A stretch of DNA of 39,878 bases from Candidatus Omnitrophota bacterium (GTDB lineage Bacteria; Omnitrophota; Gorgyraeia; Tantalellales; Tantalellaceae). Made by a program: the position numbers and the translations under genes. The stretch is taken from positions 1-39,878 of the forward strand of contig DAOVKF010000001.1 of NCBI GenBank assembly GCA_030631915.1, in the 5' to 3' direction. Under the pieces are notes generated by a model that was given only the letters and a program-made list of their open reading frames with translations, made no database searches and had not been told where the DNA came from. How positions within the stretch are numbered: the stretch's first letter is position 1; each line of letters begins with the position of its first letter. This document shows, one piece after another, positions 10,922 to 24,679 of this stretch.

Positions 10922-12359
10922 TCCTCAGGGTTTTCAGAAAGTCGGGAGGCAAACGTCGGAAGGCAGACCGGTTCGCGAGCGCCTCAGGGATTACAGAGAG
11001 GTCCCGGTCATGCGTAAAGACGAACAGTCAAAGGAGCAGGCATCGCGCTGTATGGACTGCGGCACGCCTTTCTGCCACTGGGGATGTCCTCTCGGGAATT
11101 ATATCCCCGAATGGAACGATTTCATGTTTGACGGTCACTGGGAAAAGGCTTTTGAATTATTACAGGCAACTAACGATTTTCCGGAGTTTACGGGTAGGGT
11201 ATGTCCGGCAACCTGCGAATACGCGTGCGTGCTGGGCATAAATGACGATCCTGTGACCATACGCGAGAACGAACTCGCCGTAATAGAATACGCGTTCAGG
11301 AACGGGATGATAAAACCCCGGCCGCCCGTAACACGGACCGGGAAAAATGTCGCTGTTATAGGTTCAGGTCCGGCCGGGCTTGCCTGCGCAGCGCAGCTTA
11401 ACAGAGCGGGCCACAACGTTGTCGTATATGAAAAGGACGATAAGATCGGCGGCATTCTCCGTTACGGCATACCGGATTTCAAGCTTGAGAAAGGGGTCAT
11501 TGACAGACGTCTCTCCCTGATGAGGGAAGAAGGGATAAAGTTCGAGGCATCCGTCAACGTGGGCATGGATTACGACGCGCGGACATTACTGAAGGAATAC
11601 GACGCGGTGTGCCTCGCCGGAGGTTCCCGCGTACCGCGCGATCTCACAGTCGAAGGTCGCGGTCTGGAAGGCATATATTTCGCCATGGATTATCTGACGC
11701 AGTCGAACAGAAGAATATCCGGCGGGAGAATACCCGCAGACCGGCTTATAGACGCCGGGGGCAGGAAAGTCGTCGTGATCGGGGGAGGAGATACAGGTTC
11801 TGACTGCGTTGGGACCGCCGGCAGGCAGGGCGCTTTGAGCGTGACGCAGATCGAACTTTTGCCGAAGCCCCCGGAAAGCCGCGCCGAAGATCAACCCTGG
11901 CCGGTATACCCGGTGCTTCTGAAAACCTCGACCAGTCATGAGGAAGGAGGAGACAGGATATGGTCGGTCAGGACAAAGAGATTCGCCGGCGAAAAAGGCC
12001 GTGTTAACAAACTCGGATGTGTACGCGTGGAATTTGTCAGGACAGATGAAAAAGCTCCTCCCGTGATGAAAGATATCCCTGGCAGCGGGTTTGAGATAGA
12101 AGCGGACCTTGTTGTTCTCGCTCTGGGTTTTATCCGTCCCGAACATGGCGGCCTACTCACGGAGCTGGGCGTCGAATTGGATGAACGCGGGAATGTCAGG
12201 ACCGGCGAAGGGCTCATGACCTCTGTCAGCAAAGTCTTTTCCGCCGGAGACATGAGGCGAGGCCAGTCGCTTGTCGTATGGGCGATCTCAGAGGGCCGCA
12301 GGGCCGCGCATTCCATTGACGTTTTTCTGACGGGACAAAGCAACCTTCCTTATATGTAG
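10914..12359 (+). CDS. gltD: glutamate synthase small subunit (NAD(P)H-dependent)
   Basis: 8-nt overlap with gltB. Cys clusters CMDCGTPFCH and CPATCEYAC. Dinucleotide folds VAVIGSGPAGLA and VVVIGGGDTGSD. Confidence 0.95.
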   Translation: MGDPQGFQKVGRQTSEGRPVRERLRDYREVPVMRKDEQSKEQASRCMDCGTPFCHWGCPLGNYIPEWNDFMFDGHWEKAFELLQATNDFPEFTGRVCPATCEYACVLGINDDPVTIRENELAVIEYAFRNGMIKPRPPVTRTGKNVAVIGSGPAGLACAAQLNRAGHNVVVYEKDDKIGGILRYGIPDFKLEKGVIDRRLSLMREEGIKFEASVNVGMDYDARTLLKEYDAVCLAGGSRVPRDLTVEGRGLEGIYFAMDYLTQSNRRISGGRIPADRLIDAGGRKVVVIGGGDTGSDCVGTAGRQGALSVTQIELLPKPPESRAEDQPWPVYPVLLKTSTSHEEGGDRIWSVRTKRFAGEKGRVNKLGCVRVEFVRTDEKAPPVMKDIPGSGFEIEADLVVLALGFIRPEHGGLLTELGVELDERGNVRTGEGLMTSVSKVFSAGDMRRGQSLVVWAISEGRRAAHSIDVFLTGQSNLPYM

Positions 12360-12375: not shown

Positions 12376-12404
12376 TTGACTAATCGTTCGAACTTCGAGA
12401 TAAT
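12376..12404 (+). promoter_or_regulatory. sigma-70-type promoter candidate for the nuoE-like operon leader
   Basis: TTGACT (12376-12381), 17-nt spacer, GATAAT (12399-12404). Confidence 0.55.
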
Positions 12405-12433
12405 TACCGGGCTGACACGCTGTTTGCGTCAGC

Positions 12434-12482
12434 AGGGAACAAAGACGTTCTTTCCTGCGGAGGGAGGAGTGTCTTTTTTTTT
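12434..12482 (+). terminator. leader attenuator: hexaloop hairpin (12434-12453) overlapping an intrinsic terminator (12441-12482)
   Basis: Terminator: 13-bp GACGTTCTTTCCT / AGGGAGGAGTGTC stem (with G-U pairs), GCGG loop, T9. Competing hairpin: AGGGAAC-AAAGAC-GTTCTTT, 7 bp with a hexaloop (A1, G4). Confidence 0.65.
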
Positions 12483-12548
12483 GATCAAAAACTCATGACC
12501 GTCCTTTTAGGCGGTCTCAGAGAATGAGAACCAGGAGCAAAAAAAAAG

Positions 12549-13040
12549 ATGACGACCGCAGACGCGAAAAGAGTCGATACTATACTAAAAGGCAGAGAAG
12601 GCGCTTCCGGCGAATTGATCGAGGCGCTGCAGGATATCCAGGATGCCTTTAAGTACCTTCCGGAAGAGGCGCTGAGAAGTGTGTCGGAAAAGATGGCAGT
12701 GCCCCTTATCGAAGTATTCAGAGTTGCGAATTATTATAAGGCGTTTACGCTTCAGCCGCGCGGCAGGCATCTCCTTACGGTCTGCATGGGGACCGCGTGC
12801 CATGTGAGAGGAGCGCCCAGGTTCCTGGATGAGGTCCTCGGCCAGCTTGACATCAAACCCGGAGAGACTACCGAAGACGGCGACTTTACCGTGGAAACGG
12901 TAAACTGCCTCGGCGCGTGCGCTTTAGGCCCGGTCGTGGTGCTTGACGGAAAATATCATGACCATATGACCGCCGGGAAATTACGCGCTTTGATCCAGGG
13001 GACCCTCTCTAAGAAGGCAAAAAAAACAGGTGATAGATGA
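12549..13040 (+). CDS. NuoE/HoxE-like thioredoxin-fold [2Fe-2S] ferredoxin subunit
   Basis: CMGTACHVRGA ... VNCLGACALGPVVVLDG motif set. Confidence 0.85.
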   Translation: MTTADAKRVDTILKGREGASGELIEALQDIQDAFKYLPEEALRSVSEKMAVPLIEVFRVANYYKAFTLQPRGRHLLTVCMGTACHVRGAPRFLDEVLGQLDIKPGETTEDGDFTVETVNCLGACALGPVVVLDGKYHDHMTAGKLRALIQGTLSKKAKKTGDR

Positions 13041-14890
13041 GAACCATAGCTTGCATGGAAGATCTGGAAAAACTGGCCGAGCAAAAGAGAAAAGAAAACC
13101 GTGGATACAGCAGGACAGTTACTCTCTGCGCAGGCACCGGATGTTGCGCGTCAGGATGCCTTTCAGTGATAAAAGCGTTACGTGAAGAGCTGGAGCGTTT
13201 GAAATTAAAGGAAAAGATCAAGATCAGGGCTACCGGTTGCCACGGTTTCTGCGAACAGGGGCCGCTCATGGTCATAGAACCCGGGAATATTTTTTATTGC
13301 CGGATCAAGCCCGAGGATATCCCTGAGATCGTTGCCGAGACATTGCAGAAGGACCGGCTGATAGAAAGGTTAATGTATACCGACCCTTCTTCGGGCAGAA
13401 AGATCGCCTGTGAGGCGGAGATCCCTTTTTATAAAGCGCAGGACCGGACAGTACTGGGCCAGAATAAACTGGTTGACCCGTGCGCGGTCGGGGATTATAT
13501 AGCGAATGGCGGCTATTCCGCGTTAGTCAAGGTCCTGACATCCATGAAGCCCGAAGAGGTGATAGACGAGATCAAACGGTCCGGGCTCAGGGGCAGGGGC
13601 GGCGGCGGGTTCCCTGCCGGTAGACAATGGGAGTATTGCAGACAGGCCGAGGGTGAACCCAAGTATGTTATCTGCAACGCGGACGAAGGCGACCCCGGCG
13701 CTTACATGGACAGGAGTGTTCTCGAGGGCAACCCTCATGTCGTTATCGAGGGCATGCTTATCGGAGCGTTCGCCATCGGCGCGAAGCATGGTTTTATATA
13801 CGTCAGGAATGAATATCCGCTCGCGGTGGAACATTCAAAGATCGCGGTCGAGCAGGCCGGGAAGCTGGGGCTCCTGGGAACGAATATCCTCGGGACGGAT
13901 TTTTCGTTTGACATAAAAATAGCCAGAGGCGGCGGCGCGTTCGTGTGCGGCGAGTCGACCGCGTTAATGGCCTCTCTGGAAGGCATGGTCGGTGAGCCCA
14001 GGCCAAAGGATATCCATACGACGGACAAAGGGTTTAAGGACCTGCCGACAAATCTGAATAATGTTGAGACCTGGGCCAATGTGCCTTTTATCATCAATAA
14101 GGGGTCTTCCTGGTTCGCCTCAAAAGGCACCTCCGGGAGCAAGGGAACAAAGATCTTTGCCCTGACCGGACAGATAAGAAATACCGGGTTGGTCGAGATC
14201 TCCATGGGGACCACTCTGCGGGAGATCATATATGATATAGGCGGCGGATCCGCTACGGGGAAAAAGATAAAGGCGGTCCAGACAGGCGGGCCGTCCGGGG
14301 GCTGTCTTCCCGAGGAACTCTTTGATCTGCCCGTGGATTTCGAGGCGTTGGCCGAAGCGGGTTCAATGGTGGGTTCAGGCGGGATGGTGGTAATGGACGA
14401 GGATACCTGCATGGTCGATGTCGCCAGGTATTTTCTGGAATTCCTTCTGGACGAATCATGCGGTAAATGTGTTCCGTGCAGGATCGGCCTGAGCCGCATG
14501 CTGGAAATAATAAAAGATATCACGGAAGGCAGGGGAACGGAAGAAAAACTGGAACTCCTGAAAGACACGGCTGAAACCGTATCCGTGGCTTCATTATGCG
14601 CTTTGGGCAAAACAGCCCCTAACCCGGTGCTATCCACGATCAAATATTTCCGGTCCGAATACGAAGCACATATAAAGAAAAAACAATGTCCCGCCGGGGT
14701 GTGCAGGGAATTGATACATTATTCCATTGACCGGGACAAATGCACGGGCTGCGGCGTTTGTTTAACGGCCTGTCCCCATGAGGCCATTACGGGCGAAAAA
14801 GGAAAGGTTCACAGGATCGAGGACGATAAATGCCGGAAATGCGGTATTTGCGGGGAAGCGTGTAAATTCGGCGCGATCAAGCTGTCATAG
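13037..14890 (+). CDS. NuoF/HydB-type NAD(H)- and FMN-binding flavoprotein with N-terminal [2Fe-2S] and C-terminal 2x[4Fe-4S] domains
   Basis: ATGA overlap with the previous gene. GLRGRGGGGFPAG, ICNADEGDPGAYMDR, ESCGKCVPCR, and C-terminal CTGCGVCLTACP / CRKCGICGEAC. Confidence 0.9.
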   Translation: MRTIACMEDLEKLAEQKRKENRGYSRTVTLCAGTGCCASGCLSVIKALREELERLKLKEKIKIRATGCHGFCEQGPLMVIEPGNIFYCRIKPEDIPEIVAETLQKDRLIERLMYTDPSSGRKIACEAEIPFYKAQDRTVLGQNKLVDPCAVGDYIANGGYSALVKVLTSMKPEEVIDEIKRSGLRGRGGGGFPAGRQWEYCRQAEGEPKYVICNADEGDPGAYMDRSVLEGNPHVVIEGMLIGAFAIGAKHGFIYVRNEYPLAVEHSKIAVEQAGKLGLLGTNILGTDFSFDIKIARGGGAFVCGESTALMASLEGMVGEPRPKDIHTTDKGFKDLPTNLNNVETWANVPFIINKGSSWFASKGTSGSKGTKIFALTGQIRNTGLVEISMGTTLREIIYDIGGGSATGKKIKAVQTGGPSGGCLPEELFDLPVDFEALAEAGSMVGSGGMVVMDEDTCMVDVARYFLEFLLDESCGKCVPCRIGLSRMLEIIKDITEGRGTEEKLELLKDTAETVSVASLCALGKTAPNPVLSTIKYFRSEYEAHIKKKQCPAGVCRELIHYSIDRDKCTGCGVCLTACPHEAITGEKGKVHRIEDDKCRKCGICGEACKFGAIKLS

Positions 14891-14898
14891 GAGAATAA

Positions 14899-15612
14899 AT
14901 GAGTGAATATGTAACCCTTACAATTAACGGCGCTAAAGTAAGGGCGCCTCGAGGTACATCAGTATTGGACGCCGCGCTGGATTACGGGATATGCATACCG
15001 CACCTCTGTCACATGCAGGGGGTGATCCCCACGGGTGTCTGCCGTCTGTGTATCGTGGAGGTTATTGAAAAAGGCAGGTCAAAAGTTACTACCTCCTGCA
15101 CTCTTGAAGCGGAGGAAGGGATGGTAATTTTAGCTCATACGGACAAGATCCTTAAGGCGAGGAAGAATATCGCCGAGATGCTGGTAGCCGAAGCGCCTAA
15201 TTCACGCGCCATCCAGGACATTGCTCTCAAGTGCGGCGTTAAAGACGTCCGGTATCCTTTCCGCAATAAGGATTGCGTTTTATGCGGACGATGCGTCAGA
15301 GCCTGCACCGAGATATGGCGGTCCAGGTCCCTGGGTTTTGTGGGGCGCGGAGAACAGCGGCATGTCGCCCTTCCGTTCGACGAACGTCCGGAATTCTGTA
15401 AAAGATGCAATGCCTGTATCGATCTCTGTCCCATGACCATTACTCCGTGTGACGGGCCCATGAAAAAAGGCGAGGAATATTTTTGCGGGAAATGCGAGTC
15501 TCAACTGTCAATGTCGGAAGATTTTGTGGATAGTTGCGTGTGGTGCAGACTGGGAGAAGGGTTTGACGTGACAGGCAGACACGCCGGAAGAAAACAGGAG
15601 GATAAAAGATGA
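14899..15612 (+). CDS. NuoG/HydA N-terminal-like [2Fe-2S] + [4Fe-4S] ferredoxin (no catalytic domain)
   Basis: ITLTINGAKVRAPRGTSVLDAALDYGICIPHLCH, CRLCIVEV, CVLCGRCVRAC, CKRCNACIDLCP. Confidence 0.8.
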   Translation: MSEYVTLTINGAKVRAPRGTSVLDAALDYGICIPHLCHMQGVIPTGVCRLCIVEVIEKGRSKVTTSCTLEAEEGMVILAHTDKILKARKNIAEMLVAEAPNSRAIQDIALKCGVKDVRYPFRNKDCVLCGRCVRACTEIWRSRSLGFVGRGEQRHVALPFDERPEFCKRCNACIDLCPMTITPCDGPMKKGEEYFCGKCESQLSMSEDFVDSCVWCRLGEGFDVTGRHAGRKQEDKR

Positions 15613-17195
15613 ATTTGCAGCAGCCGAATGCTAACGACGTAACACAGACAGCGAACAGGTCCCGGAGCGTTGTTCCCGGGTCGGGATTATGCACGCGGTG
15701 TATTGACGGGTGCCGCGGGAATTGCGAAGTGTTTAAAGCGACCTTCAGGGGCCGCGAAGTGATCTATCCCGGCCCGTTCGGCGAGATCTCGGCCGGCGGA
15801 GACAAAGAATACCCGGTGGATTATTCACATCTTAACATACAGGGATACGCCATGGGCGCCAAAGGGCTTCCCGAAGGCGTGGAGGCCGGCCCGGACACCG
15901 CAACCTTTCCCGCTGTGAACACCGAAACCGGATACGGATGGGATAAAAAGGTAAAGATGAGGGTCCCGGCTTTTACAGGGGCGCTCGGCTCCACGGAAAT
16001 AGCCAGAAAGAACTGGGAGCATTTCGCGATCGGAGCGGCTATTTCCGGCGTTACTCTGGTCTGCGGAGAGAATGTTTGCGGCATTGACCCGGAATTGGAA
16101 CTGGACCCAAAGGGAAAGATCAAAAAAGCCCCTGACATGGACAGAAGGATAGAAACCTATAAGAAATTTCATGAGGGCTACGGAGAGATACTGGTCCAGA
16201 TGAACGTCGAAGACACCCGTTTGGGCGTCGCGGAATATGTAAGAAAGAAACACGACCTGGAGACCATTGAGCTTAAATGGGGACAGGGGGCCAAGTGTAT
16301 CGGAGGAGAGATCAAGGTCAAGAGCCTGGAAAGGGCGCTGGAACTTAAAAAAAGGGGATATATCGTTACTCCTGATCCGACGCTCAAGGCGGTCCAGAAC
16401 GCCTATAAAGCCGGAGCTATCAGGGAATTTGAACGCCATTCCCGCCTTGGATTCGTGACGGAAGAGGCTTTCTTCCAGGAGATCAAGCGTCTCAGGGATC
16501 TGGGGTTTAAGAGGATAACCCTGAAGACCGGCGCGTATCCGATGAGGGAACTTGCCATGGCCGTTAAATATTCGTCAATGGCCGGGATAGATCTTCTCAC
16601 GATAGACGGGGCTCCGGGCGGAACCGGGATGAGTCCGTGGAGGATGATGGAAGAGTGGGGGGTCCCGACGTTCTATCTCCAGTCCATGACTTATGAGATA
16701 TGTGAAAAACTAACGAAGAAAGGGATGCGGGTCCCGGACATCGCGATCGCGGGAGGGTTCTCCACCGAAGACCACATCTTCAAGGTGCTGGCCATGGGAG
16801 CGCCTTACGTGAAGGCGGTCTGCATGGGAAGGGCATATATGATCCCGGGCATGGTCGGCAAGAATATCGGATACTGGATCGATGGCAAGGACCTGCCTTC
16901 AACGGTTTCCCGATACGGCAAGACCCCGGAAGAGATATTTGTATGCTATGACGAGCTTGTCGAGAAATACGGAAACAGGATGAAAGAGATCCCCCTCGGC
17001 GCGATAGGGATCTACAGCTTTGCGCAGAAACTGAAAGTCGGGCTTCAGCAGCTCATGGCCGGGAGCAGGAATTTCAGGCTGGATACCATATCAAGGAAAG
17101 ACCTCATGTCCTTAACGGAAGAAGCCGCGAAAGTATCAGGCATTCCTTACGTGATGGACGCTTACAGGGAAGAGGCGGAAGCGGTACTTGGATAA
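15609..17195 (+). CDS. stand-alone glutamate synthase FMN-domain (GltS synthase-domain) protein with N-terminal Cys cluster
   Basis: ATGA overlap with the ferredoxin gene. CTRCIDGCRGNCEVF cluster. LTIDGAPGGTGMSP parallels ISGGDGGTGASP of gltB in this window. No Ntn glutaminase domain and no GXGXG domain. Confidence 0.85.
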   Translation: MNLQQPNANDVTQTANRSRSVVPGSGLCTRCIDGCRGNCEVFKATFRGREVIYPGPFGEISAGGDKEYPVDYSHLNIQGYAMGAKGLPEGVEAGPDTATFPAVNTETGYGWDKKVKMRVPAFTGALGSTEIARKNWEHFAIGAAISGVTLVCGENVCGIDPELELDPKGKIKKAPDMDRRIETYKKFHEGYGEILVQMNVEDTRLGVAEYVRKKHDLETIELKWGQGAKCIGGEIKVKSLERALELKKRGYIVTPDPTLKAVQNAYKAGAIREFERHSRLGFVTEEAFFQEIKRLRDLGFKRITLKTGAYPMRELAMAVKYSSMAGIDLLTIDGAPGGTGMSPWRMMEEWGVPTFYLQSMTYEICEKLTKKGMRVPDIAIAGGFSTEDHIFKVLAMGAPYVKAVCMGRAYMIPGMVGKNIGYWIDGKDLPSTVSRYGKTPEEIFVCYDELVEKYGNRMKEIPLGAIGIYSFAQKLKVGLQQLMAGSRNFRLDTISRKDLMSLTEEAAKVSGIPYVMDAYREEAEAVLG

Positions 17196-17216
17196 ACAGG
17201 GGAACACCCTGTTTTT
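17196..17216 (+). terminator. intrinsic terminator after the GltS-FMN gene
   Basis: ACAGGG-gaaca-CCCTGT followed by T5, directly after the TAA stop at 17193-17195. Confidence 0.6.
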
Positions 17217-17230
17217 AAGGGCATTGGCCC

Positions 17231-17269
17231 GTCCAGCAGTAGCGGCATGTCTTTTCTTCAGGCAGGCCG
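17231..17269. repeat. left copy of the 39-bp direct repeat (duplicate of the purF' 3' end)
   Basis: GTCCAGCAGTAGCGGCATGTCTTTTCTTCaGGCAGGCCG matches 18664-18702 at 38/39. On the minus strand it reads GLPEEKTCRYCWTG, then QCP-stop. Confidence 0.85.
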
Positions 17270-17337
17270 GTTCGTGAAGGCTTCGCGTGAACCTTACCTT
17301 ACAATGTAAATAGAGTCCCGCGGAGTCTGAGCACAAT

Positions 17338-17393
17338 AATTACAACATATAAGTTGTAATTTATTTGACAATACGACATATATGTTGTATAAT
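17338..17393 (+). promoter_or_regulatory. cassette promoter with two operator-like palindromes
   Basis: TTGACA (17365-17370), 17-nt spacer, TATAAT (17388-17393). Inverted repeat AATTACAAC-N6-GTTGTAATT at 17338-17361 and ATACGACAT-AT-ATGTTGTAT at 17371-17390. Confidence 0.6.
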
Positions 17394-17402
17394 TGTTCTA
17401 CA

Positions 17403-18122
17403 ATGAAAAAAGAGAAAATTTCAAGGTATCAGGACACGGTGCTCAGGGTTTTGGCGAACAAGATAGATGACTTCTATCTTGCCGGCGGCACCGCACTCTC
17501 TTTGTTTTATTTTCAACACAGATTATCTGTCGATCTGGATTTTTTTACTCCACATTTCTCATATAAGAGAATAGAAGAGATCGTTAGATATCTGGAAGGC
17601 GCTTTAGTGAAAGAAATTAAACTTATTGGACAAACGCTGGAAAAGGATAAGGCGAGGGTGCGGATCTATAATATATATTTCACGAAAAGAGATACCCTGA
17701 AAGTCGATTTTATCGAGGATCTTTTCAAACTCATTAAGCGGCCGAAAATAGTAGATGGCGTAAAAATATTATCTTTAGAGGATATATATCTGAGAAAACT
17801 GTATGCTATCGCCGGCATGATCCCTTTTCAGGACATAACAGGGAAAGAACGGTTTTTAGGCGGCAGGATAGAAGCAAAAGATTTTTATGATGTTTATTTC
17901 CTTTCGAGCACATTTATGTCTCTTTCGAGATTCGCGGAAAAATATACCGATAATACCGTAAAAGAAGGATTGATCAATTGGTTCCGCACTTATGACAGGA
18001 TGACCATGATGGACGATCTTTTAAGCTTGAATATAACTGAAAAAATAGACTATAAAAGCATGGATAAACATTTTAATGAAGAAATAGACAAGATCATCCA
18101 AAGGTATATAGAAAGAATATGA
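17403..18122 (+). CDS. nucleotidyltransferase, AbiEii/AbiGii (DUF1814)-type toxin family
   Basis: GGTALSLFYFQHRLSVDLDFF motif. The ATG at 17403 is about 10 nt after the -10 box, so the mRNA is probably leaderless. The ORF-track start at 17382 lies inside the promoter. Confidence 0.8.
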   Translation: MKKEKISRYQDTVLRVLANKIDDFYLAGGTALSLFYFQHRLSVDLDFFTPHFSYKRIEEIVRYLEGALVKEIKLIGQTLEKDKARVRIYNIYFTKRDTLKVDFIEDLFKLIKRPKIVDGVKILSLEDIYLRKLYAIAGMIPFQDITGKERFLGGRIEAKDFYDVYFLSSTFMSLSRFAEKYTDNTVKEGLINWFRTYDRMTMMDDLLSLNITEKIDYKSMDKHFNEEIDKIIQRYIERI

Positions 18123-18637
18123 AAAAAGACTGGTTATGGGACAGAAAAATAAGTCTTAGCGGGGCAAAAAAGATCCTCAGGGACTTTCAGGATAAAAAGT
18201 TCATTTTACTTGCCTCATTACTTTTGACACGAAAAAATGACCCCGAAGAGGTTTTCAGGGAATATATTGATCCGATCATGTTCTGCAAGAGCTGGCCTAA
18301 AATTAAGAAGAACATGCGTAAAAACAAATGGAGCGATAAACGGATCATTTTCTGGCAGGCCGTGTATGAGAAGCTCATGGAAAAATACCGCGGGGAAGGG
18401 ATCAGATTTAGGGAGAAGAAAGAGATAGCAATAGAGGAGATAAGCAGAAAGACAGGTGATCAAATACGAAGGATCAGAAGAGAGCAGGGGTTGTCCCAGA
18501 AGGAATTAGCGAAAAAAATGGGGGTTTCTCAACAGCAGATTTCCCGCATTGAAAAAGGCAAAGAGAATGTATCCCTGACAACGCTCACCGGTATTATGAA
18601 AGCCTTGAATAAAACAGTGAATATTACTTTTGGGTAG
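18119..18637 (+). CDS. XRE-family HTH protein (putative cognate antitoxin/regulator) with uncharacterised N-terminal domain
   Basis: ATGA overlap with the NTase gene. C-terminal HTH: IRRIRREQGLSQKELAKKMGVSQQQISRIEKGKENVSLTTL. Confidence 0.8.
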   Translation: MKKDWLWDRKISLSGAKKILRDFQDKKFILLASLLLTRKNDPEEVFREYIDPIMFCKSWPKIKKNMRKNKWSDKRIIFWQAVYEKLMEKYRGEGIRFREKKEIAIEEISRKTGDQIRRIRREQGLSQKELAKKMGVSQQQISRIEKGKENVSLTTLTGIMKALNKTVNITFG

Positions 18638-18647
18638 AAGCCGGGCA

Positions 18648-20045
18648 CTACGGGCTTTTGCCTGTCCAGCAGTAGCGGCATGTCTTTTCTTCGGGCAGGC
18701 CGATGGCTTCGACCATATCGTCAATGGTCTGATACCGCAAGGTGGTTACGTCAAGGTCCCGGGCGATCCATTCCACCATTTTACGGTATTTGCCGGAATC
18801 ATGGTCACAGTATTCCGACACGTCCTCTATGTCGTGCCCTTCCAGGCTTCGGATGGCTTTCCGGGCGGCCAGTTCATGGATGCTCCGCGTGGACAGACAG
18901 AATTTGCAGGGGAACATGAGCGGCGGGCACGCGGGCCTGACGTGAACCTCTTTGGCCCCGCATTCCCACAGTTTGGTCACCGTGAAATTCTTTAACTGCG
19001 TCCCTCTTACTATGGAATCCTCGCATACGACGATCCTGTTGCCCTCAATTATGTCCTTTATGGGGATGAGTTTCATGGTCGCGATCAGGTCGCGCGTTCC
19101 CTGCGACGGCGGCGTATAGCTCCGGCCGTATCCGGGCGTGTATTTTACCAGCGGCCTCCTCAAGGGTTTTCCGGACTCCATGGCATATCCCAGCGCGTGC
19201 GCGACCCCGGAATCGGGTATCCCGGCAACCAGGTCCACCTCGATGTCTTTATCTTTCCGCGCCAGGGACCTGCCGCATTTCTCGCGCACGGTCTCCACGT
19301 TGATGCCTTCATAACTCGAGGCGGGGAACCCGGTATATATCCAGAGAAAAGCGCAGATCTGGTTGTTTTTACCTCCCGGTCTTTTCTGCGCCATGCCCCG
19401 CTCGTTGAGCATGACTATTTCTCCGGGTTCCAGGTACTTTACCGTCTCGAACCCGTTATTCGGAAAAGCGCTGGTCTCGGAAGTGACTGCCCAGGCGTCT
19501 TCCCGTTTGCCTACGATAAGAGGCGTATATCCCAGGCGGTCCCTGGCGGCGTACACCCCGTCTTTATTCAGCAGCAGAAGGGAGCAGGAACCGTCGATCG
19601 CCTGGAACATTTTTTCTATGCCGTCTATGAGGCTGGTCCCCTGATTGATAAGTTTTGCCATCAGTTCCGTCACATTGACCGTCGCTGCGCTCATCTCGCT
19701 GAAAGAGATCCCCTTATCAAGAAGCGCTTCAGCCAGTTTTTCGGAGTTTTCTATGAGCCCGCTGGTGACGATACAGAACGGGCCGAACCTTGAATTAAGG
19801 AAGATCGGCTGTTCGTTACTGTCGCTGATAACCCCGATACCCTTGTTACCCGTCATCCGTCTGCAATCTTCATGGAATTTGGACTTGAACTGACTCTGGC
19901 TGATCTCATGGATCTGGCGCTGAAACACCTCTCCAAGGACCGCTATGCCCCCGTATTCCGTCCCCAGATGGGAGTGGTAATCCGTGCCGTATAACAGAAT
20001 GTCCGTACAATTTTCCCTGGAAACCACACCAAATATCCCGCTCAT
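18648..20045 (-). CDS. amidophosphoribosyltransferase (PurF) paralog with degenerate glutaminase site (Ser replaces the N-terminal Cys)
   Basis: RBS AAGAGGAGA, then a 6-nt spacer, then ATG AGC GGG (MSGIFG). The PRTase motifs are retained ([27 protein letters not shown]), as are the Fe-S Cys positions. The glutaminase motifs are lost. Confidence 0.85.
   Translation of the reverse strand: MSGIFGVVSRENCTDILLYGTDYHSHLGTEYGGIAVLGEVFQRQIHEISQSQFKSKFHEDCRRMTGNKGIGVISDSNEQPIFLNSRFGPFCIVTSGLIENSEKLAEALLDKGISFSEMSAATVNVTELMAKLINQGTSLIDGIEKMFQAIDGSCSLLLLNKDGVYAARDRLGYTPLIVGKREDAWAVTSETSAFPNNGFETVKYLEPGEIVMLNERGMAQKRPGGKNNQICAFLWIYTGFPASSYEGINVETVREKCGRSLARKDKDIEVDLVAGIPDSGVAHALGYAMESGKPLRRPLVKYTPGYGRSYTPPSQGTRDLIATMKLIPIKDIIEGNRIVVCEDSIVRGTQLKNFTVTKLWECGAKEVHVRPACPPLMFPCKFCLSTRSIHELAARKAIRSLEGHDIEDVSEYCDHDSGKYRKMVEWIARDLDVTTLRYQTIDDMVEAIGLPEEKTCRYCWTGKSP
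18664..18702. repeat. right copy of the 39-bp direct repeat (inside the purF' 3' end)
   Basis: 38/39 identical to 17231-17269. Encodes GLPEEKTCRYCWTG of the intact gene. Confidence 0.85.
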
Positions 20046-20057
20046 CTTTCATCTCCT

Positions 20058-20104
20058 CTTGAGTGTCATCCCTGCTTGAGAGTCATCCCCGCGAAAGCGG
20101 GGAT
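20058..20104 (-). repeat. tandem 17-nt repeat plus GAAA-loop hairpin spanning the carB1 stop and the carB1-purF' spacer
   Basis: CTTGAGTGTCATCCCTG (20058-20074) and CTTGAGAGTCATCCCCG (20075-20091). Hairpin ATCCCCGC-GAAA-GCGGGGAT at 20085-20104. Confidence 0.6.
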
Positions 20105-23100
20105 CTATCCGACTGATGATATTCCTGAAGCGCCTTTGGCAGTAATTTACGTGTTTTGACGGCTTCAATGCCCGTAATACTCGCTTCAGCGGCTGCGATC
20201 GACGTGACATACGGGGTTTTTCGCTGTATCGCCATCATGCGGATATAACTGTCGTCGTATTTGCTGTCACGCCCTATAGGTGTATTGATAATGAGCTGCA
20301 GGCCGTCATTTTTGATCGCGTCAGAGATATTGGGCCTTCCTTCATGCAGCTTGTTGATCCGGACGTTATTTATTTTGTTCTTGTTCAAGAACTCACTTGT
20401 CCCTTTTGTGGCGTAGATAGTGAACCCGAGCGCCACGATCTTTTGCGCGATGGGTAGCAGCGCCGGTTTGTCCTTATCGGTGACCGTCAGCAGCACATTC
20501 CCTTCGACCGGGAGTTTTGATCCAGCCGCTTCCTGGGCCTTGTAAAAAGCGAGCTCGAACGAATCCGCGATACCCATCACTTCACCGGTGGCTTTCATTT
20601 CCGGGCCGAGGAGCGGGTCGACCTCCGGGAACATATTGAACGGAAAAACGGCTTCTTTCACCCCTACGTAGGGCAAATGACGGGTCTTTAATTCAGGAAA
20701 ATCGCTTAACTTTTTTCCCAGCATGACCTGTGTCGCGACCCTGGCTATGGGCATGCCTGTCATTTTAGACACAACAGGGACGGTGCGGGACGCGCGCGGG
20801 TTCGCTTCAAGGATATAAACCATATCGTCACAGATAGCGTACTGTATATTCATGAGCCCGACGACTTTGAGTTCCTTCGCGATGATCGCGGTATATTTTT
20901 CAATTTGCTCAAGATGTTCTTTCTTTATGGTCCGGGTCGGGATGGAGCACGCGGAGTCGCCCGAATGAACTCCTGCCAGCTCGATATGTTCCATGACAGA
21001 AGCGATAAACGTTGCTTCGCCGTCGGATAACGCGTCAACCTCCGCTTCAACCGCTTTTTCAAGGAACCTGTCGATGAGCATGGGGTGTTCAGGGCTGACC
21101 CGGATAGCCTCGACCGCGTATTTTCTGAGCGATCCTTCGTCGTAAATGATCTGCATGCCCCGGCCGCCAAGAACGTAGGAGGGCCGCACCATGAGCGGGT
21201 AGCCGATCTTTTCCGCGATACTCAGGGCTTCCTCAAGTGACCGCGCTGTATCGCTCTCCGGCTGCGGGATCCCGAGCGCGATCATTTTCTCGCGGAACCG
21301 CTCTCGGTCCTCGGCGAAATGGATGCTTTCCGGCGATGTCCCCAGGATCCTGACACCGTTATCTTTCAGCTCCCGGGCTATGTTAAGGGGCGTCTGGCCC
21401 CCGAACTGGACTATAACACCTTCGGGTTTTTCTTTTTCATAAATGGACAGGACGTCCTCAACGGTCAACGGTTCAAAATAGAGTTTATCGGATGTGTCAT
21501 AATCGGTCGATACTGTTTCAGGGTTGCAGTTGACCATGATCGATCCATACCCTTCGTCGCGCAGGGCGAACGCGGCGTGAACGCAGGCATAGTCGAACTC
21601 TATCCCCTGCCCGATCCTGTTCGGCCCGCCGCCGAGGATCATGACTTTTCTGCTTGCGGAAACCGGGCTCTTGTCTTCAATGCTTTTATACGTTGAATAA
21701 TAATACGCGGCATTCTCCACACCGCTTACAGGAACAGCCTCGTAACGGGCCGTTTTCCCGATGGAGATCCTTTTATCCCGCACTTCTTTTTCGGCGACAT
21801 TAAAGAGCCCTGAGAGATATCTGTCGGAAAATCCCCACTCCTTCGCTTTCGCGAGTTCGGCATGGGGAAGGTCCTTCCACGCGCGGGAGAGCAGTTCTTC
21901 CTCAAGATCAACGAGCTCTTTTATCTCATTGATGAACCAGCGTCCGATATAGGTCAGGCTGTGAAGTTCGTCCACGCCCATGCCTTTACGCAACGCTTCA
22001 TACATCAGAAAGACGCGTTCACTCGAGGGAAAAGCAAGTTTTTGTTTCAGTTCGTTCAGTGAAAGTTCCTTGAAGTTCTTAGCGCCGCCCAGGCCGTAAC
22101 GGTTGATCTCCAGGGAGCGGATGGACTTCTGGAAAGACTCCTTGAAGGTTTTTCCGATACTCATGACTTCGCCGACGGCTTTCATTTGCGTGCCCAGGAT
22201 ATCAGTGGATTGGGAGAATTTTTCAAACGCCCATCGCGCGAATTTAACGACGACATAGTCACCGCACGGCGAGTATTTTTCAAGTGTCCCGTCCCTCCAG
22301 TAGGGGATCTCGTCCATGGTTAACCCGGCCGCGAGTTTTGTCGAGATGCGCGCGATAGGAAAACCGGTCGCCTTTGAAGCAAGCGCGGAAGAACGGGAAG
22401 TTCTCGGATTGATCTCAATGACCACCACTCTGCCGTCTTCCGGATTATGGGCGAATTGGATATTGGTCCCGCCGACGACCCCGATCGCGTCAACGATCTT
22501 ATAAGAGATATCCTGCAGCCGTTCCTGCAGCTCCGGAGGGACGGTCAGCATAGGGGCGGTGCAGAAACTGTCTCCGGTATGCACGCCCATGGCGTCGACA
22601 TTTTCAATAAAGCACACCGTGATCTTCTGGTTTTTCTCGTCTCTTACGACTTCAAGTTCCAGTTCTTCCCATCCCAGGACAGACTCTTCGACCAGGACCT
22701 GATGGACAAGGCTTGCGGCCAGGCCCCGGGTGACGATCGTTCTCAGCTCTTCCACATTGTAAGCCATGCCGCTGCCGGTCCCGCCCATAGTGTACGCGGG
22801 CCTGAGCACAACGGGATAACCGAGCTTTTCGGCTATTTTTTCAGCTTCCTCGACAGAATGACAGGGTTCGGATGCGGGAAGACCGAGGCCCAGGCCTATC
22901 ATGGTCTTTTTGAATTCGGTCCGGTCTTCGCCCCGCTCAATGGCTTCCGGCTTGACGCCGATCATCTCTACCCCGTATTTTTTTAAAAACCCGGACTTAT
23001 AAAGGCTGGAGGAAAGGTTAAGCCCTGTCTGTCCCCCTAAATTAGGGAGCAGTCCGTCAGGCCGTTCTTTTTCAATGATCGCCTCAAGGCTCTTGACAGT

Positions 23101-23307
23101 AAGCGGTTCTATGTAAGTTTTATCAGCCATGCCGGGATCCGTCATTATCGTGGCCGGGTTTGAGTTGACCAGCACAACTTCATAACCTTCTTCTTTTAAC
23201 GCCTTGCACGCCTGGGTGCCGGAATAGTCGAATTCACAGGCCTGTCCGATAATAATGGGGCCGGAACCGATTATAAGAATTTTGCTCAAGTCGCTGCGTT
23301 TTGGCAT
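20083..23307 (-). CDS. carB: carbamoyl-phosphate synthase large subunit, paralog 1 (no adjacent small subunit on its strand)
   Basis: 1074 aa, full two-ATP-grasp architecture. [42 protein letters not shown]. Confidence 0.95.
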   Translation of the reverse strand: MPKRSDLSKILIIGSGPIIIGQACEFDYSGTQACKALKEEGYEVVLVNSNPATIMTDPGMADKTYIEPLTVKSLEAIIEKERPDGLLPNLGGQTGLNLSSSLYKSGFLKKYGVEMIGVKPEAIERGEDRTEFKKTMIGLGLGLPASEPCHSVEEAEKIAEKLGYPVVLRPAYTMGGTGSGMAYNVEELRTIVTRGLAASLVHQVLVEESVLGWEELELEVVRDEKNQKITVCFIENVDAMGVHTGDSFCTAPMLTVPPELQERLQDISYKIVDAIGVVGGTNIQFAHNPEDGRVVVIEINPRTSRSSALASKATGFPIARISTKLAAGLTMDEIPYWRDGTLEKYSPCGDYVVVKFARWAFEKFSQSTDILGTQMKAVGEVMSIGKTFKESFQKSIRSLEINRYGLGGAKNFKELSLNELKQKLAFPSSERVFLMYEALRKGMGVDELHSLTYIGRWFINEIKELVDLEEELLSRAWKDLPHAELAKAKEWGFSDRYLSGLFNVAEKEVRDKRISIGKTARYEAVPVSGVENAAYYYSTYKSIEDKSPVSASRKVMILGGGPNRIGQGIEFDYACVHAAFALRDEGYGSIMVNCNPETVSTDYDTSDKLYFEPLTVEDVLSIYEKEKPEGVIVQFGGQTPLNIARELKDNGVRILGTSPESIHFAEDRERFREKMIALGIPQPESDTARSLEEALSIAEKIGYPLMVRPSYVLGGRGMQIIYDEGSLRKYAVEAIRVSPEHPMLIDRFLEKAVEAEVDALSDGEATFIASVMEHIELAGVHSGDSACSIPTRTIKKEHLEQIEKYTAIIAKELKVVGLMNIQYAICDDMVYILEANPRASRTVPVVSKMTGMPIARVATQVMLGKKLSDFPELKTRHLPYVGVKEAVFPFNMFPEVDPLLGPEMKATGEVMGIADSFELAFYKAQEAAGSKLPVEGNVLLTVTDKDKPALLPIAQKIVALGFTIYATKGTSEFLNKNKINNVRINKLHEGRPNISDAIKNDGLQLIINTPIGRDSKYDDSYIRMMAIQRKTPYVTSIAAAEASITGIEAVKTRKLLPKALQEYHQSDRSPLSRG

Positions 23308-23337
23308 CTCCTCTCCTCTTCGTTCCTTTCAGCGCGA

Positions 23338-23410
23338 CTGCCCGGGTATCCTCGAGCTGAGGGAACGGTCGTTTGCCATGCTCCTACCAGGGCCTCTTTG
23401 CCCGGAGCAG
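23338..23410 (-). repeat. conserved structured noncoding element, copy A (in the carB1 5' leader)
   Basis: The minus strand reads CTGCTCCGGGCAAAGAGGCCCTGGTAGGAGCATGGCAAACGACCGT...GGATACCCGGGCAG. It is closed by a CTGC(t)CCGGG / CCCGGGCAG stem and is homologous to 39669-39730. Confidence 0.6.
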
Positions 23411-23419
23411 GCACCTTTC

Positions 23420-23447
23420 ATAATATCAATTTTAGAATACTTTTCAA
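23420..23447 (-). promoter_or_regulatory. promoter candidate for carB1-purF' (minus strand)
   Basis: Minus strand: TTGAAA, 16-nt spacer, TATTAT. Confidence 0.45.
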
Positions 23448-23471
23448 CTGTTTTCTGTGATGGTAAGGGTG

Positions 23472-23500
23472 TTTACAACCCGGGGCACTTCCTGTATAAT
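23472..23500 (+). promoter_or_regulatory. promoter candidate for the carA operon
   Basis: TTTACA (23472-23477), 17-nt spacer, TATAAT (23495-23500). Confidence 0.55.
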
Positions 23501-23554
23501 ACATAGAATATTAATAGTGCGGTTAAAAAATTTCTGTATAGCGGGTTTTCTGAG

Positions 23555-24637: not shown

Positions 24638-24679
24638 GGGGGGCAAGGGGCAAAAGCGGGATGCGGGAGTTAAGAAAAT

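What the first reader, a model, noticed from the sequence alone, without database searches (positions are those of the whole stretch)
12549..23307. Contiguous block of three glutaminase-less paralogs next to the canonical glutamine-dependent enzymes
Between gltBD and carA-carB-purF lie, back to back:
- a GltS FMN/synthase-domain protein with no Ntn glutaminase domain, fed by a NuoEF-type module;
- a PurF paralog whose glutaminase catalytic motifs are destroyed while its PRTase half is intact;
- a full-length CarB with no CarA of its own.

GltS synthase domains, PurF PRTase domains and CarB can each use free NH3 in vitro (established enzymology). The block is interrupted only by an inserted TA-like cassette, and it sits in an amtB/glnK/glnA neighbourhood.

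Inference: this may be a coordinated ammonia-dependent bypass set for glutamate, phosphoribosylamine and carbamoyl-phosphate synthesis, used when ammonium is plentiful or glutamine is limiting. I do not know of such a co-localised set having been described.
Basis: partly seen in the sequence, partly recalled or inferred. Interest (0 to 1): 0.8.

Follow-up and report, generated by a model that had tools for sequence, protein, structure and literature searches.

The report
Glutaminase-less paralogs in a nitrogen gene cluster
An uncultured Omnitrophota bacterium carries glutaminase-less versions of three nitrogen-incorporating enzymes beside the normal glutamine-using genes; they belong to widespread, highly conserved, uncharacterised families that are only loosely linked to one another, so a dedicated ammonia-using bypass is plausible but unproven.

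Summary
Window 12549-23307 encodes:
- a NuoE/NuoF/short-NuoG module followed by a 528-aa FMN protein (GltS-FMN') distantly related to the glutamate synthase FMN domain;
- an AbiEii/HTH cassette;
- a PurF paralog (PurF') with Ser in place of Cys1 and a remodelled glutamine site;
- a full-length CarB paralog (CarB', 52% identical to the neighbouring carB).

Each is a large, strongly conserved family (72-91% identity across phyla; GltS-FMN' also occurs in Archaea), not a decayed copy.

Main refinements:
- The "NuoEF" module is a BfuABC-type core, the kind found in electron-bifurcating enzymes.
- GltS-FMN' keeps the 2-oxoglutarate-site Lys/Gln/Arg, but swaps the canonical 3Fe-4S cysteines for an N-terminal Cys4 motif.
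- CarB'→PurF' mirrors the adjacent carB→purF.

Synteny is facultative. All three co-localise in three genomes from two phyla, and CarB' is the hub. PurF' usually sits beside canonical purF-purM or carAB. GltS-FMN' usually sits beside nrpR, glnA or gdh. A sister strain (98.8% nucleotide identity) lacks CarB' upstream of PurF'.

The ammonia-bypass reading is partly supported. Ammonia dependence remains an inference.

The parts
12376..12485 (+). Promoter-like site (TTGACT-17-GATAAT), then a small hairpin and a 16-bp hairpin with a U-run, upstream of the nuoE-like gene. It is either a regulated leader or the gltBD terminator.
12549..13040 (+). NuoE/HoxE-like [2Fe-2S] subunit (BfuC-like)
   Evidence: Pfam 2Fe-2S_thioredx, 152 bits; NCBIfam HoxE/NuoE hits fall below their cut-offs
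13037..14890 (+). NuoF-like NADH/FMN subunit with an N-terminal 2Fe-2S domain and a C-terminal 2x[4Fe-4S] domain (BfuB/HydB architecture)
   Evidence: The best solved relatives, matched over the full length, are B subunits of electron-bifurcating enzymes (680-780 bits), against 363-383 bits for non-bifurcating homologues.
14899..15612 (+). Short NuoG-N-terminal/HoxU-like Fe-S subunit (short BfuA)
   Evidence: Pfam Fer2_4 and Fer4_Nqo3; best solved match is 9mqx_A, a 247-aa 'chain G-like' protein
15609..17195 (+). GltS-FMN': a 528-aa Fe-S flavoprotein distantly related to the GltB FMN/synthase domain. It has an N-terminal C28-x2-C31-x3-C35-x3-C39 motif, and K223/Q226/K229/R249 align with the canonical 2-oxoglutarate-site residues.
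17216..17269 (.). First copy of the 54-nt direct repeat: a relic of the PurF' 3' end, marking the left edge of the inserted cassette
17382..18122 (+). AbiEii-family nucleotidyltransferase (toxin-like)
   Evidence: Pfam AbiEii, 69.6 bits; low G+C
18119..18637 (+). Xre/HTH_3 DNA-binding protein (antitoxin-like)
18648..20045 (-). PurF': a PurF paralog with Ser in place of Cys1 and a remodelled glutamine site. The PRPP motif and the [4Fe-4S] cysteines are kept. Its last 54 nt (18649-18702) are the second repeat copy.
20083..23307 (-). CarB': a full-length carbamoyl-phosphate synthase large subunit from a distinct clade, with no carA upstream. It ends 37 nt before PurF', consistent with an operon.
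23308..23554 (.). Divergent intergenic region between CarB' and carA, with a promoter-like site on each strand
23555..29315 (+). Canonical carA-carB-purF operon (carB and purF overlap by 23 nt): the glutamine-dependent counterpart that CarB'→PurF' mirrors
6380..12359 (+). Canonical gltB-gltD (NADPH glutamate synthase), immediately upstream of the block

Best explanation
The block is two conserved modules that lie together inside a nitrogen/glutamine gene supercluster.

Module 1 (12549-17195) is a BfuABC-type NADH/ferredoxin oxidoreductase core: a NuoE-like subunit, a NuoF-like subunit with extra Fe-S domains, and a short NuoG-like subunit. It is translationally coupled to GltS-FMN'. GltS-FMN' is an Fe-S flavoprotein that keeps the 2-oxoglutarate-site residues of glutamate synthase but has no glutaminase. 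It most likely reduces 2-iminoglutarate formed from 2-oxoglutarate and free ammonia to glutamate. Electrons would come from NADH, possibly coupled to ferredoxin.

Module 2 (CarB'→PurF', minus strand) is an ancient diverged counterpart of the adjacent carB→purF pair, without a glutaminase. CarB' most likely makes carbamoyl phosphate. PurF' most likely makes phosphoribosylamine. Both would use ammonia that does not come from their own glutaminase.

Shown: the gene content, the domain and motif states, the family conservation and the neighbourhood statistics.

Inferred: the substrates, the use of ammonia, and any co-regulation. The two modules are linked only facultatively, with CarB' as the usual connector. 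They form a loose functional guild, not a fixed operon.
For: Bfu core:
- NuoF-like matches the B subunits of structurally solved bifurcating enzymes over its full length (7t2r, 7q4v, 8a6t, 9mqx, 9n5u, 7p5h; 680-780 bits). Non-bifurcating FdsB and Nqo1 score 363-383 bits.
- The short NuoG-like subunit best matches 9mqx_A.
- The same three genes flank GltS-FMN' in 10 of 80 loci, in both Bacteria and Archaea.

GltS-FMN':
- hhalign against canonical FMN domains gives 97.6% probability, with the GQGAK motif and Arg aligned.
- The N-terminal Cys4 motif is invariant.
- Identity is 72-91% across phyla and domains.
- Its neighbours are nitrogen genes: nrpR 25/80, glnA 10, gdh 10, GAF-ANTAR 9, glnK 9.

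PurF':
- Ser follows the initiator Met in 83 of 83 full-length relatives.
- The glutamine-binding residues are replaced, while EDSIVRGT and the four cluster cysteines are invariant.
- It sits in pur and car operons.

CarB':
- It forms a distinct clade: 79% identical to the L008 copy, but 51-52% to canonical CarB.
- No carA lies directly upstream in any of 11 contexts.

Co-localisation:
- All three genes occur together in the window, L023 and L029.
- Pairs occur in L008, L026, L172, L095, L133, L170 and L173.
Against: - No assay, expression data or whole-genome presence/absence could be obtained.
- PurF' is far more often beside canonical purF-purM (26-30 of 80) or carA-carB (6-8 of 80) than beside CarB' (3 of 80). 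It is never beside GltS-FMN' in that sample.
- GltS-FMN' has canonical carAB nearby as often as CarB' (3 against 3).
- carA lies 247 bp from CarB' in the window, and directly downstream of it in L133. CarB' may therefore still pair with CarA.
- By eye, CarB' keeps residues that I recall lining the E. coli ammonia tunnel. The residue identities are from memory.
- The near-invariant Ser and the strongly conserved N-domain of PurF' suggest a retained function there, not a dead domain.
- The sister strain lacks the CarB'-PurF' junction.
- The AlphaFold model of GltS-FMN' was too poor to inspect the active site.
Confidence: 0.45

Rival explanations
1. This is general nitrogen-gene clustering, not an ammonia set. 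In this lineage almost all nitrogen-assimilation and amidotransferase genes are gathered in one place, and the three paralogs are there for shared nitrogen regulation. CarB' is a second large subunit that pairs with the single CarA (for example an arginine- versus pyrimidine-specific isozyme). PurF' is a regulatory or hetero-oligomeric partner of PurF. GltS-FMN' is an extra glutamate-forming or related redox enzyme.
For: - The window holds glnA, amtB, glnK, gltBD, carAB, purF, pyrG, guaA, purSL, purQ and glmS.
- The same supercluster recurs in L013, L014, L018 and L024 with GltS-FMN' but without CarB' or PurF'.
- PurF' follows purF-purM in 26-30 of 80 loci and canonical carAB in 6-8.
- carA is adjacent to CarB' in the window and in L133.
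Against: - CarB' stands alone, with no carA in view, in L008, L023, L026, L095, L170, L171, L172 and L173.
- In L172 and L026 it occupies the cluster position that carA-carB holds in L013, L016 and L024.
- The PRTase catalytic motifs of PurF' are invariant. A purely regulatory protein would not need them.
Confidence: 0.3
2. The paralogs have different chemistry. PurF' uses its N-terminal Ser (exposed once Met is removed) as an Ntn nucleophile on an amide donor other than glutamine, or transfers PRPP to another acceptor. GltS-FMN' reduces a different 2-oxo or imino acid. In that case they are not simple ammonia-dependent isozymes of the canonical reactions.
For: - Ser at position 2 in 83 of 83 full-length relatives.
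- Gly102-equivalent is invariant, and the Asn101-equivalent is Asn in 35 of 83.
- The N-domain is as conserved as the PRTase domain.
- The GltS family includes N-methylglutamate synthase subunits (PMC6237917, listed).
- In GltS-FMN', the position that I recall as Q978 of Synechocystis glutamate synthase is Glu.
Against: - Position 2 is Gly in L029 and Asn in P0081. The nucleophile is therefore not universal.
- The pur/car operon context of PurF' and the glnA/gdh/nrpR context of GltS-FMN' fit the canonical products.
Confidence: 0.15
3. The juxtaposition in this genome is a chance or recent rearrangement with no functional meaning for the trio.
For: - The sister-strain contig L174 is 98.8% identical across GltS-FMN'-TA-PurF'. 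It diverges 11 nt upstream of the PurF' start, where it carries a peptidase S9 gene instead of CarB'.
- Gene order differs between the window and L029.
- Five PurF' homologues examined first had neither partner nearby.
Against: - CarB'-PurF' adjacency recurs in divergent lineages: L029, L095, L170, and L173 in Elusimicrobia.
- GltS-FMN'-CarB' adjacency recurs in L023, L026 and L172.
- By a rough estimate of about 0.5% expected per gene pair within the flanks held, 3 of 80 is several-fold above chance.
Confidence: 0.1

Closest known systems
Glutamine PRPP amidotransferase PurF (B. subtilis type, [4Fe-4S]; PDB 1GPH/1AO0)
   Same: - Same two-domain layout: Ntn-type domain plus PRTase domain.
- Profile match of 218 bits to 1gph.
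- Cluster cysteines and the PRPP loop are conserved.
- Sits in pur and car operons.
- From memory: the PRTase domain of PurF can use NH3 in vitro.
   Different: - Cys1 is replaced by Ser.
- The Arg26, Arg73/Tyr74 and Asp127 equivalents are replaced.
- Scores 205 against a cut-off of 350 for TIGR01134.
- Only 31% identical to the purF of the same genome, yet 75-88% identical within its own family across phyla.
Carbamoyl-phosphate synthase large subunit CarB, and ammonia-dependent CPS I of animals
   Same: - CarB' has all the CarB domains and passes both NCBIfam CarB models.
- From memory: E. coli CarB alone makes carbamoyl phosphate from NH3.
- From memory: CPS I is the classic paralog whose glutaminase-like domain has Ser for the catalytic Cys and which uses free ammonia.
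   Different: - CarB' has no fused or upstream glutaminase at all (0 of 11 contexts).
- It forms its own clade, about 52% identical to canonical CarB.
- Whether it still docks CarA is unknown.
Glutamate synthase FMN/synthase domain (GltB; archaeal split GltS; Pfam PF01645)
   Same: - TIM-barrel FMN domain.
- The GQGAK...R motif aligns, as does the DG(A/G)xGGTG(A/M)SP motif.
- Nitrogen-gene neighbourhood.
   Different: - No glutaminase, central or GXGXG domain.
- The canonical 3Fe-4S cysteines are absent, and an N-terminal Cys4 motif is present instead.
- A profile of the family finds no solved GltS.
- It co-exists with canonical or archaeal-type FMN subunits.
BfuABC family of electron-bifurcating enzymes (HydABC, NfnABC, Wor-Bfu; Schut et al. 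2022, PMC9304861)
   Same: - B subunit with an N-terminal 2Fe-2S domain, FMN/NADH site and C-terminal 2x[4Fe-4S].
- NuoE-like C subunit.
- Short A subunit, as in the 9mqx complex.
   Different: - The partner is a GltS-like flavoprotein. [quoted passage not shown]
- By my estimate, its presumed substrate couple is more positive than NAD+/NADH. That would require NADH to be the bifurcating donor.
AbiE-type toxin-antitoxin cassette
   Same: AbiEii nucleotidyltransferase domain with an overlapping small DNA-binding gene.
   Different: The partner is an Xre/HTH_3 protein encoded downstream, not an AbiEi upstream. No function was tested.

Membership tests
PurF (amidophosphoribosyltransferase, TIGR01134) | Reaches the curated equivalog score | tested here: not met
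   205 bits against a cut-off of 350. The canonical purF of the window scores 528.
PurF (amidophosphoribosyltransferase, TIGR01134) | N-terminal catalytic Cys plus the glutamine-binding Arg/Asn-Gly/Asp residues | tested here: not met
   The protein starts MSGIFG. R26 is L/M, R73/Y74 are I/S, and D127 is T/V/A. N101 is S or N, and G102 is kept.
PurF (amidophosphoribosyltransferase, TIGR01134) | PRPP-binding motif and [4Fe-4S] ligands of the B. subtilis type | tested here: met
   E342-T349 (EDSIVRGT) is conserved in 82-83 of 83 sequences at every position. C231, C380, C456 and C459 are invariant in 83 of 83.
PurF (amidophosphoribosyltransferase, TIGR01134) | Catalyses PRA formation | not testable with these tools
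   Needs an enzyme assay.
CarB (carbamoyl-phosphate synthase large subunit) | Full domain set and curated model score | tested here: met
   NF003671: 1518 bits against 599. TIGR01369: 1370 against 1027. Two ATP-grasp halves, an oligomerisation domain and an MGS domain are present.
CarB (carbamoyl-phosphate synthase large subunit) | Encoded with its own carA (typical carA-carB operon) | tested here: not met
   No carA lies directly upstream in 11 of 11 CarB' contexts. carA is divergent 247 bp away in the window, and downstream in L133.
CarB (carbamoyl-phosphate synthase large subunit) | Physical and functional coupling to CarA | not testable with these tools
   Interface residues were not mapped. 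Needs a pull-down or kinetics.
Glutamate synthase FMN/synthase domain (PF01645) | Pfam gathering score and homology across the barrel | tested here: met
   55.1 bits against 20.4, but only profile positions 187-309. hhalign gives 97.6% probability over 311 columns.
Glutamate synthase FMN/synthase domain (PF01645) | 2-oxoglutarate-site Lys/Gln/Arg. The roles of Q969, K972 and R992 in Synechocystis numbering are recalled from memory. | tested here: met
   Q226, K229 and R249 align with the canonical Q, K and R. K223 is at least 90% conserved in A4. Q226, K229 and R249 are conserved in most of the 15 A4 sequences but are not in its 90% list.
Glutamate synthase FMN/synthase domain (PF01645) | [3Fe-4S] cysteines within the FMN domain | tested here: not met
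   The canonical C352/C358/C363 of A5 have no counterpart. An N-terminal Cys4 motif is present instead.
Glutamate synthase FMN/synthase domain (PF01645) | Associated Ntn glutaminase, central and GXGXG domains | tested here: not met
   None is present in the protein or in the adjacent genes of the module.
BfuABC electron-bifurcating family | BfuB architecture (N-terminal 2Fe-2S, FMN/NADH site, C-terminal 2x[4Fe-4S]) and a NuoE-like BfuC | tested here: met
   Pfam domains. Full-length best matches are to solved BfuB/HydB/NfnB subunits.
BfuABC electron-bifurcating family | BfuA with the A1/A2 clusters | tested here: inconclusive
   A 2Fe-2S domain and a 4Fe-4S Nqo3-like domain are present, and the best match is 9mqx_A. 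Individual cluster ligands were not checked.
BfuABC electron-bifurcating family | Bifurcating or confurcating activity with ferredoxin | not testable with these tools
   Needs biochemistry.
AbiE toxin-antitoxin | AbiEii toxin paired with an AbiEi antitoxin | tested here: inconclusive
   AbiEii is present (69.6 bits). The partner is an HTH_3/Xre protein, not AbiEi.

The most novel reading that the evidence does not exclude
Energy-limited anaerobes (Omnitrophota, Elusimicrobia, some Thermodesulfobacteriota) run a glutamine-independent route of nitrogen incorporation. It would start with a previously unrecognised Bfu-type enzyme, possibly electron-bifurcating, that makes glutamate from 2-oxoglutarate and free ammonia. 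A glutaminase-free CarB'/PurF' pair would then start pyrimidine/arginine and purine synthesis directly from ammonia. This would save the ATP that glutamine synthetase spends.
Probability: 0.2. Interest if true: 0.85.

Novelty: new variant of a known kind. Interest (0 to 1): 0.6.

Why it matters
If the three families do use ammonia directly, many uncultured anaerobes would be able to bypass glutamine as the universal nitrogen donor for glutamate, purines and carbamoyl phosphate. That would change how nitrogen budgets and ATP costs are modelled for them.

Three large protein families would also need re-annotation. They are currently labelled "amidophosphoribosyltransferase", "carbamoyl-phosphate synthase large subunit" and "FMN-binding glutamate synthase family protein".

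Independently of the trio idea, two points are concrete and testable:
- A BfuABC core is coupled to a GltS-like flavoprotein in both Bacteria and Archaea. This would add a nitrogen-assimilating member to the electron-bifurcating Bfu family.
- PurF' is a very strongly conserved PurF paralog with Ser for Cys1, and I found no description of it in the searchable literature.

Tried and rejected
- Structure of GltS-FMN': the AlphaFold2 model built on the shallow 12-sequence alignment was poor (mean pLDDT 52.9). No fold search was run. More diverse homologues came from a tool whose output cannot be used for prediction.
- Profile search of GltS-FMN' against solved structures returned only designed TIM barrels and no GltS. 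The link to GltS therefore rests on Pfam and hhalign.
- Literature searches found no description of these families. The queries covered a PurF paralog lacking Cys, "FMN-binding glutamate synthase family", NuoEF with glutamate synthase, NrpR with glutamate synthase, and Bfu with glutamate synthase.
- A thiC-purF operon in clostridia (PMC6505512) suggested a thiamine link for PurF'. No recurring neighbour cluster that I annotated in the 80 PurF' loci was ThiC, but I did not search for ThiC directly. Idea dropped.
- PurF' as the glutaminase subunit for GltS-FMN': rejected. The glutamine site is remodelled, and no PurF'-anchored locus has GltS-FMN' (0 of 80).
- GltS-FMN' as merely the FMN subunit of an archaeal split GltS: rejected. 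Loci L032, L067, L079, L084 and L086 carry a separate canonical-type FMN subunit as well.
- Rfam found no known regulatory RNA in the window, only a tRNA. ANTAR-type leader hairpins were looked at only by eye.
- Genome-wide co-occurrence, and the presence or absence of carA in genomes that carry CarB', could not be tested.
- Note on my own records: an early notebook entry said L029 has the same layout as the window. It has the same gene set but a different order.

Full report
**What is in the window**

The window comes from a Candidatus Omnitrophota metagenome-assembled contig. The PurF' protein is 100% identical to a database entry on a 39,960-bp contig, and its nearest named relatives are Omnitrophota.

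Nearly the whole window is a nitrogen/glutamine supercluster on the plus strand. It holds:
- the 3' part of glnA, a GAF-ANTAR regulator, amtB, glnK and a GNAT gene;
- gltB and gltD;
- then the block in question;
- then carA, carB, purF, pyrG, guaA, purS-purL, purQ, a tRNA and glmS.

**Check of the observation**

The block reads as follows.

| Coordinates | Strand | Gene |
|---|---|---|
| 12549-13040 | + | NuoE-like |
| 13037-14890 | + | NuoF-like |
| 14899-15612 | + | HoxU/NuoG-N-terminal-like |
| 15609-17195 | + | 528-aa protein with a partial Pfam Glu_synthase hit (GltS-FMN') |
| 17382-18122 | + | AbiEii |
| 18119-18637 | + | HTH_3 protein |
| 18648-20045 | − | PurF paralog (PurF') |
| 20083-23307 | − | CarB paralog (CarB') |

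PurF' starts MSGIFG. The canonical PurF of the window has its catalytic Cys at residue 12, after a propeptide. The Arg of HRG and the HNGN motif are also replaced in PurF', while the PRPP motif and the cluster cysteines remain.

CarB' is full length and 52% identical to the canonical CarB.

**Refinement 1: the "NuoEF" module is a Bfu-type core**

The NuoF-like protein carries an N-terminal thioredoxin-like 2Fe-2S domain and a C-terminal 2x[4Fe-4S] domain. Its best solved relatives, matched over the full length, are the B subunits of electron-bifurcating enzymes:
- NiFe-HydABCSL (7t2r);
- HydB (7q4v, 8a6t, 7p5h);
- NfnB (9n5u);
- 9mqx_B.

These score 680-780 bits. Non-bifurcating formate dehydrogenase beta subunit and Nqo1 score 363-383 bits.

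The 237-aa third subunit best matches 9mqx_A, a 247-aa "chain G-like" protein. [quoted passage not shown] Its main text does not mention glutamate synthase (PMC9304861).

**Refinement 2: GltS-FMN' is a separate family, not an excised GltB domain**

- BLASTP against the window's own GltB gives only E = 0.004 over 26 residues.
- No NCBIfam model matches.
- A family profile finds no solved GltS.

Even so, a profile-profile comparison with canonical and archaeal-type FMN domains gives 97.6% probability over 311 columns. K223, Q226, K229 and R249 align with the Lys, Gln, Lys and Arg of the canonical K-x2-QGAK...R motif. From memory of the GltS structures, these include the 2-oxoglutarate-binding Lys972 and Arg992 and the catalytic Gln969 (Synechocystis numbering).

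The three cysteines that bind the canonical 3Fe-4S cluster have no counterpart. Instead there is an N-terminal C-x2-C-x3-C-x3-C motif: three of its cysteines are invariant and the fourth is at least 90% conserved, down to 30% overall identity.

The family is remarkably conserved:
- 82-91% identity among the best 120 database hits;
- 72-87% across Omnitrophota, Planctomycetes, Desulfobacterota, Dehalococcoidia, Nitrospirota, Methanoperedens, Methanothrix, Methanolobus, Bathyarchaeia and Altiarchaeales;
- only 199 clusters at 50% identity below E = 1e-30, out of 1.84 billion representatives.

**Refinement 3: CarB' and PurF' are also large conserved families**

PurF' relatives are 77-88% identical across Omnitrophota, Planctomycetota, Firmicutes and NPL-UPA2. 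Across 83 full-length relatives:
- Ser follows Met in all 83;
- EDSIVRGT and four Cys are invariant or nearly so;
- the glutamine-binding positions are replaced.

Position 2 is Gly in L029 and Asn in P0081.

CarB' relatives are at least 79% identical in the top 120. They are mostly Omnitrophota, with some Elusimicrobia and Dehalococcoidia. The lone CarB of L008 is 79% identical to CarB' but 51% to the canonical CarB. CarB' is therefore an orthologous clade of its own.

**Refinement 4: the TA cassette is an insertion, and one junction is labile**

A 54-nt direct repeat (49 of 54 identical) sits at 17216-17269 and 18649-18702. The second copy is the 3' end of PurF'. GltS-FMN' and PurF' were therefore convergent neighbours before the cassette arrived.

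A sister-strain contig (L174) is 98.8% identical to window 16081-20056. It also carries the cassette. It diverges 11 nt upstream of the PurF' start codon, where it has a peptidase S9 gene instead of CarB'.

**Synteny survey**

I anchored on each family in turn.

Anchored on GltS-FMN' (80 genome loci):

| Neighbour within the flanks held | Loci |
|---|---|
| nrpR (NrpR regulatory domains plus HTH) | 25 |
| hisF | 15 |
| Bfu genes | 10 |
| glnA | 10 |
| gdh | 10 |
| GAF-ANTAR | 9 |
| glnK | 9 |
| hisH | 9 |
| canonical CarB | 3-4 |
| CarB' | 3 |
| PurF' | 2 |

Anchored on PurF' (80 metagenome loci):

| Neighbour | Loci |
|---|---|
| canonical purF-purM directly upstream (apparently one lineage, followed by a conserved membrane protein) | 26-30 |
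| canonical carA-carB upstream | 6-8 |
| DUF1846 | 5 |
| CarB' | 3 |
| GltS-FMN' | 0 |

Five PurF' homologues examined first had neither partner nearby.

Anchored on CarB', with three contexts chosen only for contig length:
- L171 has neither partner.
- L172, a 1.55-Mb Omnitrophota record, reads gdh, GAF-ANTAR, GltS-FMN', CarB', guaA, purL, hisF, canonical purF.
- L173 (Elusimicrobia) reads CarB', a 246-aa gene, then PurF' (76% identical).

All three families occur together in the window, in L023 (GltS-FMN', CarB', DUF1846, PurF') and in L029. L029 is Thermodesulfobacteriota. There, PurF' and CarB' lie divergent from NuoE-NuoF-HoxU, followed by nrpR and GltS-FMN'. It is the same gene set in a different order.

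None of the 11 CarB' contexts has carA directly upstream. L133 reads PurF', GAF-ANTAR, nadE, CarB', carA, carB.

**Reading of the evidence**

CarB'→PurF' is spaced by 37 nt and mirrors the adjacent carB→purF, which overlap by 23 nt. Hybrid operons of carA-carB-PurF' also exist (L118, L119, L160). PurF' therefore behaves like a PurF-type enzyme tied to the start of nucleotide synthesis.

GltS-FMN' behaves like a nitrogen-regulated assimilation enzyme. CarB' is the connector between the two.

The association exceeds what unrelated genes would show. My rough estimate is about 0.5% expected per gene pair within about 12 kb of flank, against 3 of 80 observed. It is no stronger, though, than the association of the same genes with canonical glutamine-dependent enzymes.

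The evidence therefore supports a loose guild inside a general nitrogen supercluster, not a dedicated co-inherited module.

**Mechanism, with shown and inferred steps**

Shown: domain content, motif states, conservation and neighbourhoods.

Inferred:
- GltS-FMN' binds 2-oxoglutarate, lets free ammonia form 2-iminoglutarate, and reduces it at FMN.
- Its electrons arrive through the N-terminal cluster, from ferredoxin when the protein stands alone, or from the Bfu core when that is present.
- The Bfu core has a ferredoxin-type C-terminal domain. By my estimate the 2-oxoglutarate/NH4+/glutamate couple is more positive than NAD+/NADH. NADH oxidation could therefore be split between glutamate formation and ferredoxin reduction. 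This is speculation.
- CarB' would run the normal two-ATP chemistry on ammonia that does not come from a dedicated CarA.
- PurF' would add ammonia to PRPP.

The general GltS mechanism is taken from PMC8097209. The in-vitro ammonia activities of CarB and PurF, and the Cys-to-Ser change in animal CPS I, are from my own knowledge.

**Caveats**

- carA lies next to CarB' in the window and in L133.
- The N-domain of PurF' is too well conserved to be inert, and Ser1 could be a nucleophile.
- No whole-genome presence/absence, expression data or assays were available.
- The structure prediction failed.
- MAG contigs can be chimeric.

**Verdict**

I file the block as a new variant of known kinds: ammonia-using or glutaminase-less paralogs of amidotransferases, plus a new partner for a Bfu core. 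It has moderate-to-high interest because all three families are abundant, extremely conserved and, as far as the searchable literature shows, uncharacterised.

Noticed in passing
window 1-39878: Almost the whole window is a one-strand supercluster of glutamine-linked genes: glnA, GAF-ANTAR, amtB, glnK, gltBD, carAB, purF, pyrG, guaA, purSL, purQ and glmS. Similar clusters recur in L013, L014, L018 and L024.
   Followed up: partly
window 17216-17269 and 18649-18702: A 54-nt direct repeat (49 of 54 identical, 1433 bp apart) flanks the AbiEii/HTH cassette. One copy is the 3' end of PurF', so the cassette inserted into the end of that gene and brought or kept a replacement end.
   Followed up: yes
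L174:1-343 versus window 20046-20390: A sister-strain contig is 98.8% identical in nucleotide sequence over GltS-FMN'-TA-PurF'. It switches to unrelated sequence (a peptidase S9 gene) 11 nt upstream of the PurF' start, where the window has CarB'. This is either a recent rearrangement or an assembly chimera.
   Followed up: partly
L008:18543-20060, L023:14942-16477, L095:6678-8195, L016, L024, L097, L129, L131, L139: A DUF1846 protein of about 505 aa (function unknown) recurs directly beside CarB', PurF' or pyrG-carA-carB. It is absent from the window.
   Followed up: partly
L029:8705-9709 and 24 other GltS-FMN' loci: The nitrogen repressor NrpR (Pfam NRD1_2 plus HTH_12), known from methanogens, is encoded next to GltS-FMN' in 25 of 80 loci, including bacterial ones.
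   Followed up: partly
window 12408-12485, about 6275-6330, about 2065-2115: Hairpins followed by U-runs lie upstream of the nuoE-like gene, gltB and ORF 2188-3000. The first follows a promoter-like site. They could be targets of the GAF-ANTAR antiterminator at 545-1264, or simply terminators of the preceding genes.
   Followed up: no
L008:13503-14483; also L074 and L128: A 326-aa GMP synthase ATP-pyrophosphatase part with no GATase domain lies between GltS-FMN' and CarB' in L008. It is another possible glutaminase-less enzyme, or a split GuaA.
   Followed up: no
L025, L044, L073, L080: A second GltS-FMN' paralog, 50-57% identical, lies in tandem with the conserved one.
   Followed up: no
L157:4908-5924 and 30 other PurF' loci: In the purF-purM-PurF' lineage, PurF' is followed by a conserved multi-pass membrane protein of about 338 aa. 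Two members of the cluster had no Pfam match.
   Followed up: no
window 36375-36449: A tRNA gene sits between purQ and glmS inside the supercluster (Rfam, 62 bits).
   Followed up: no
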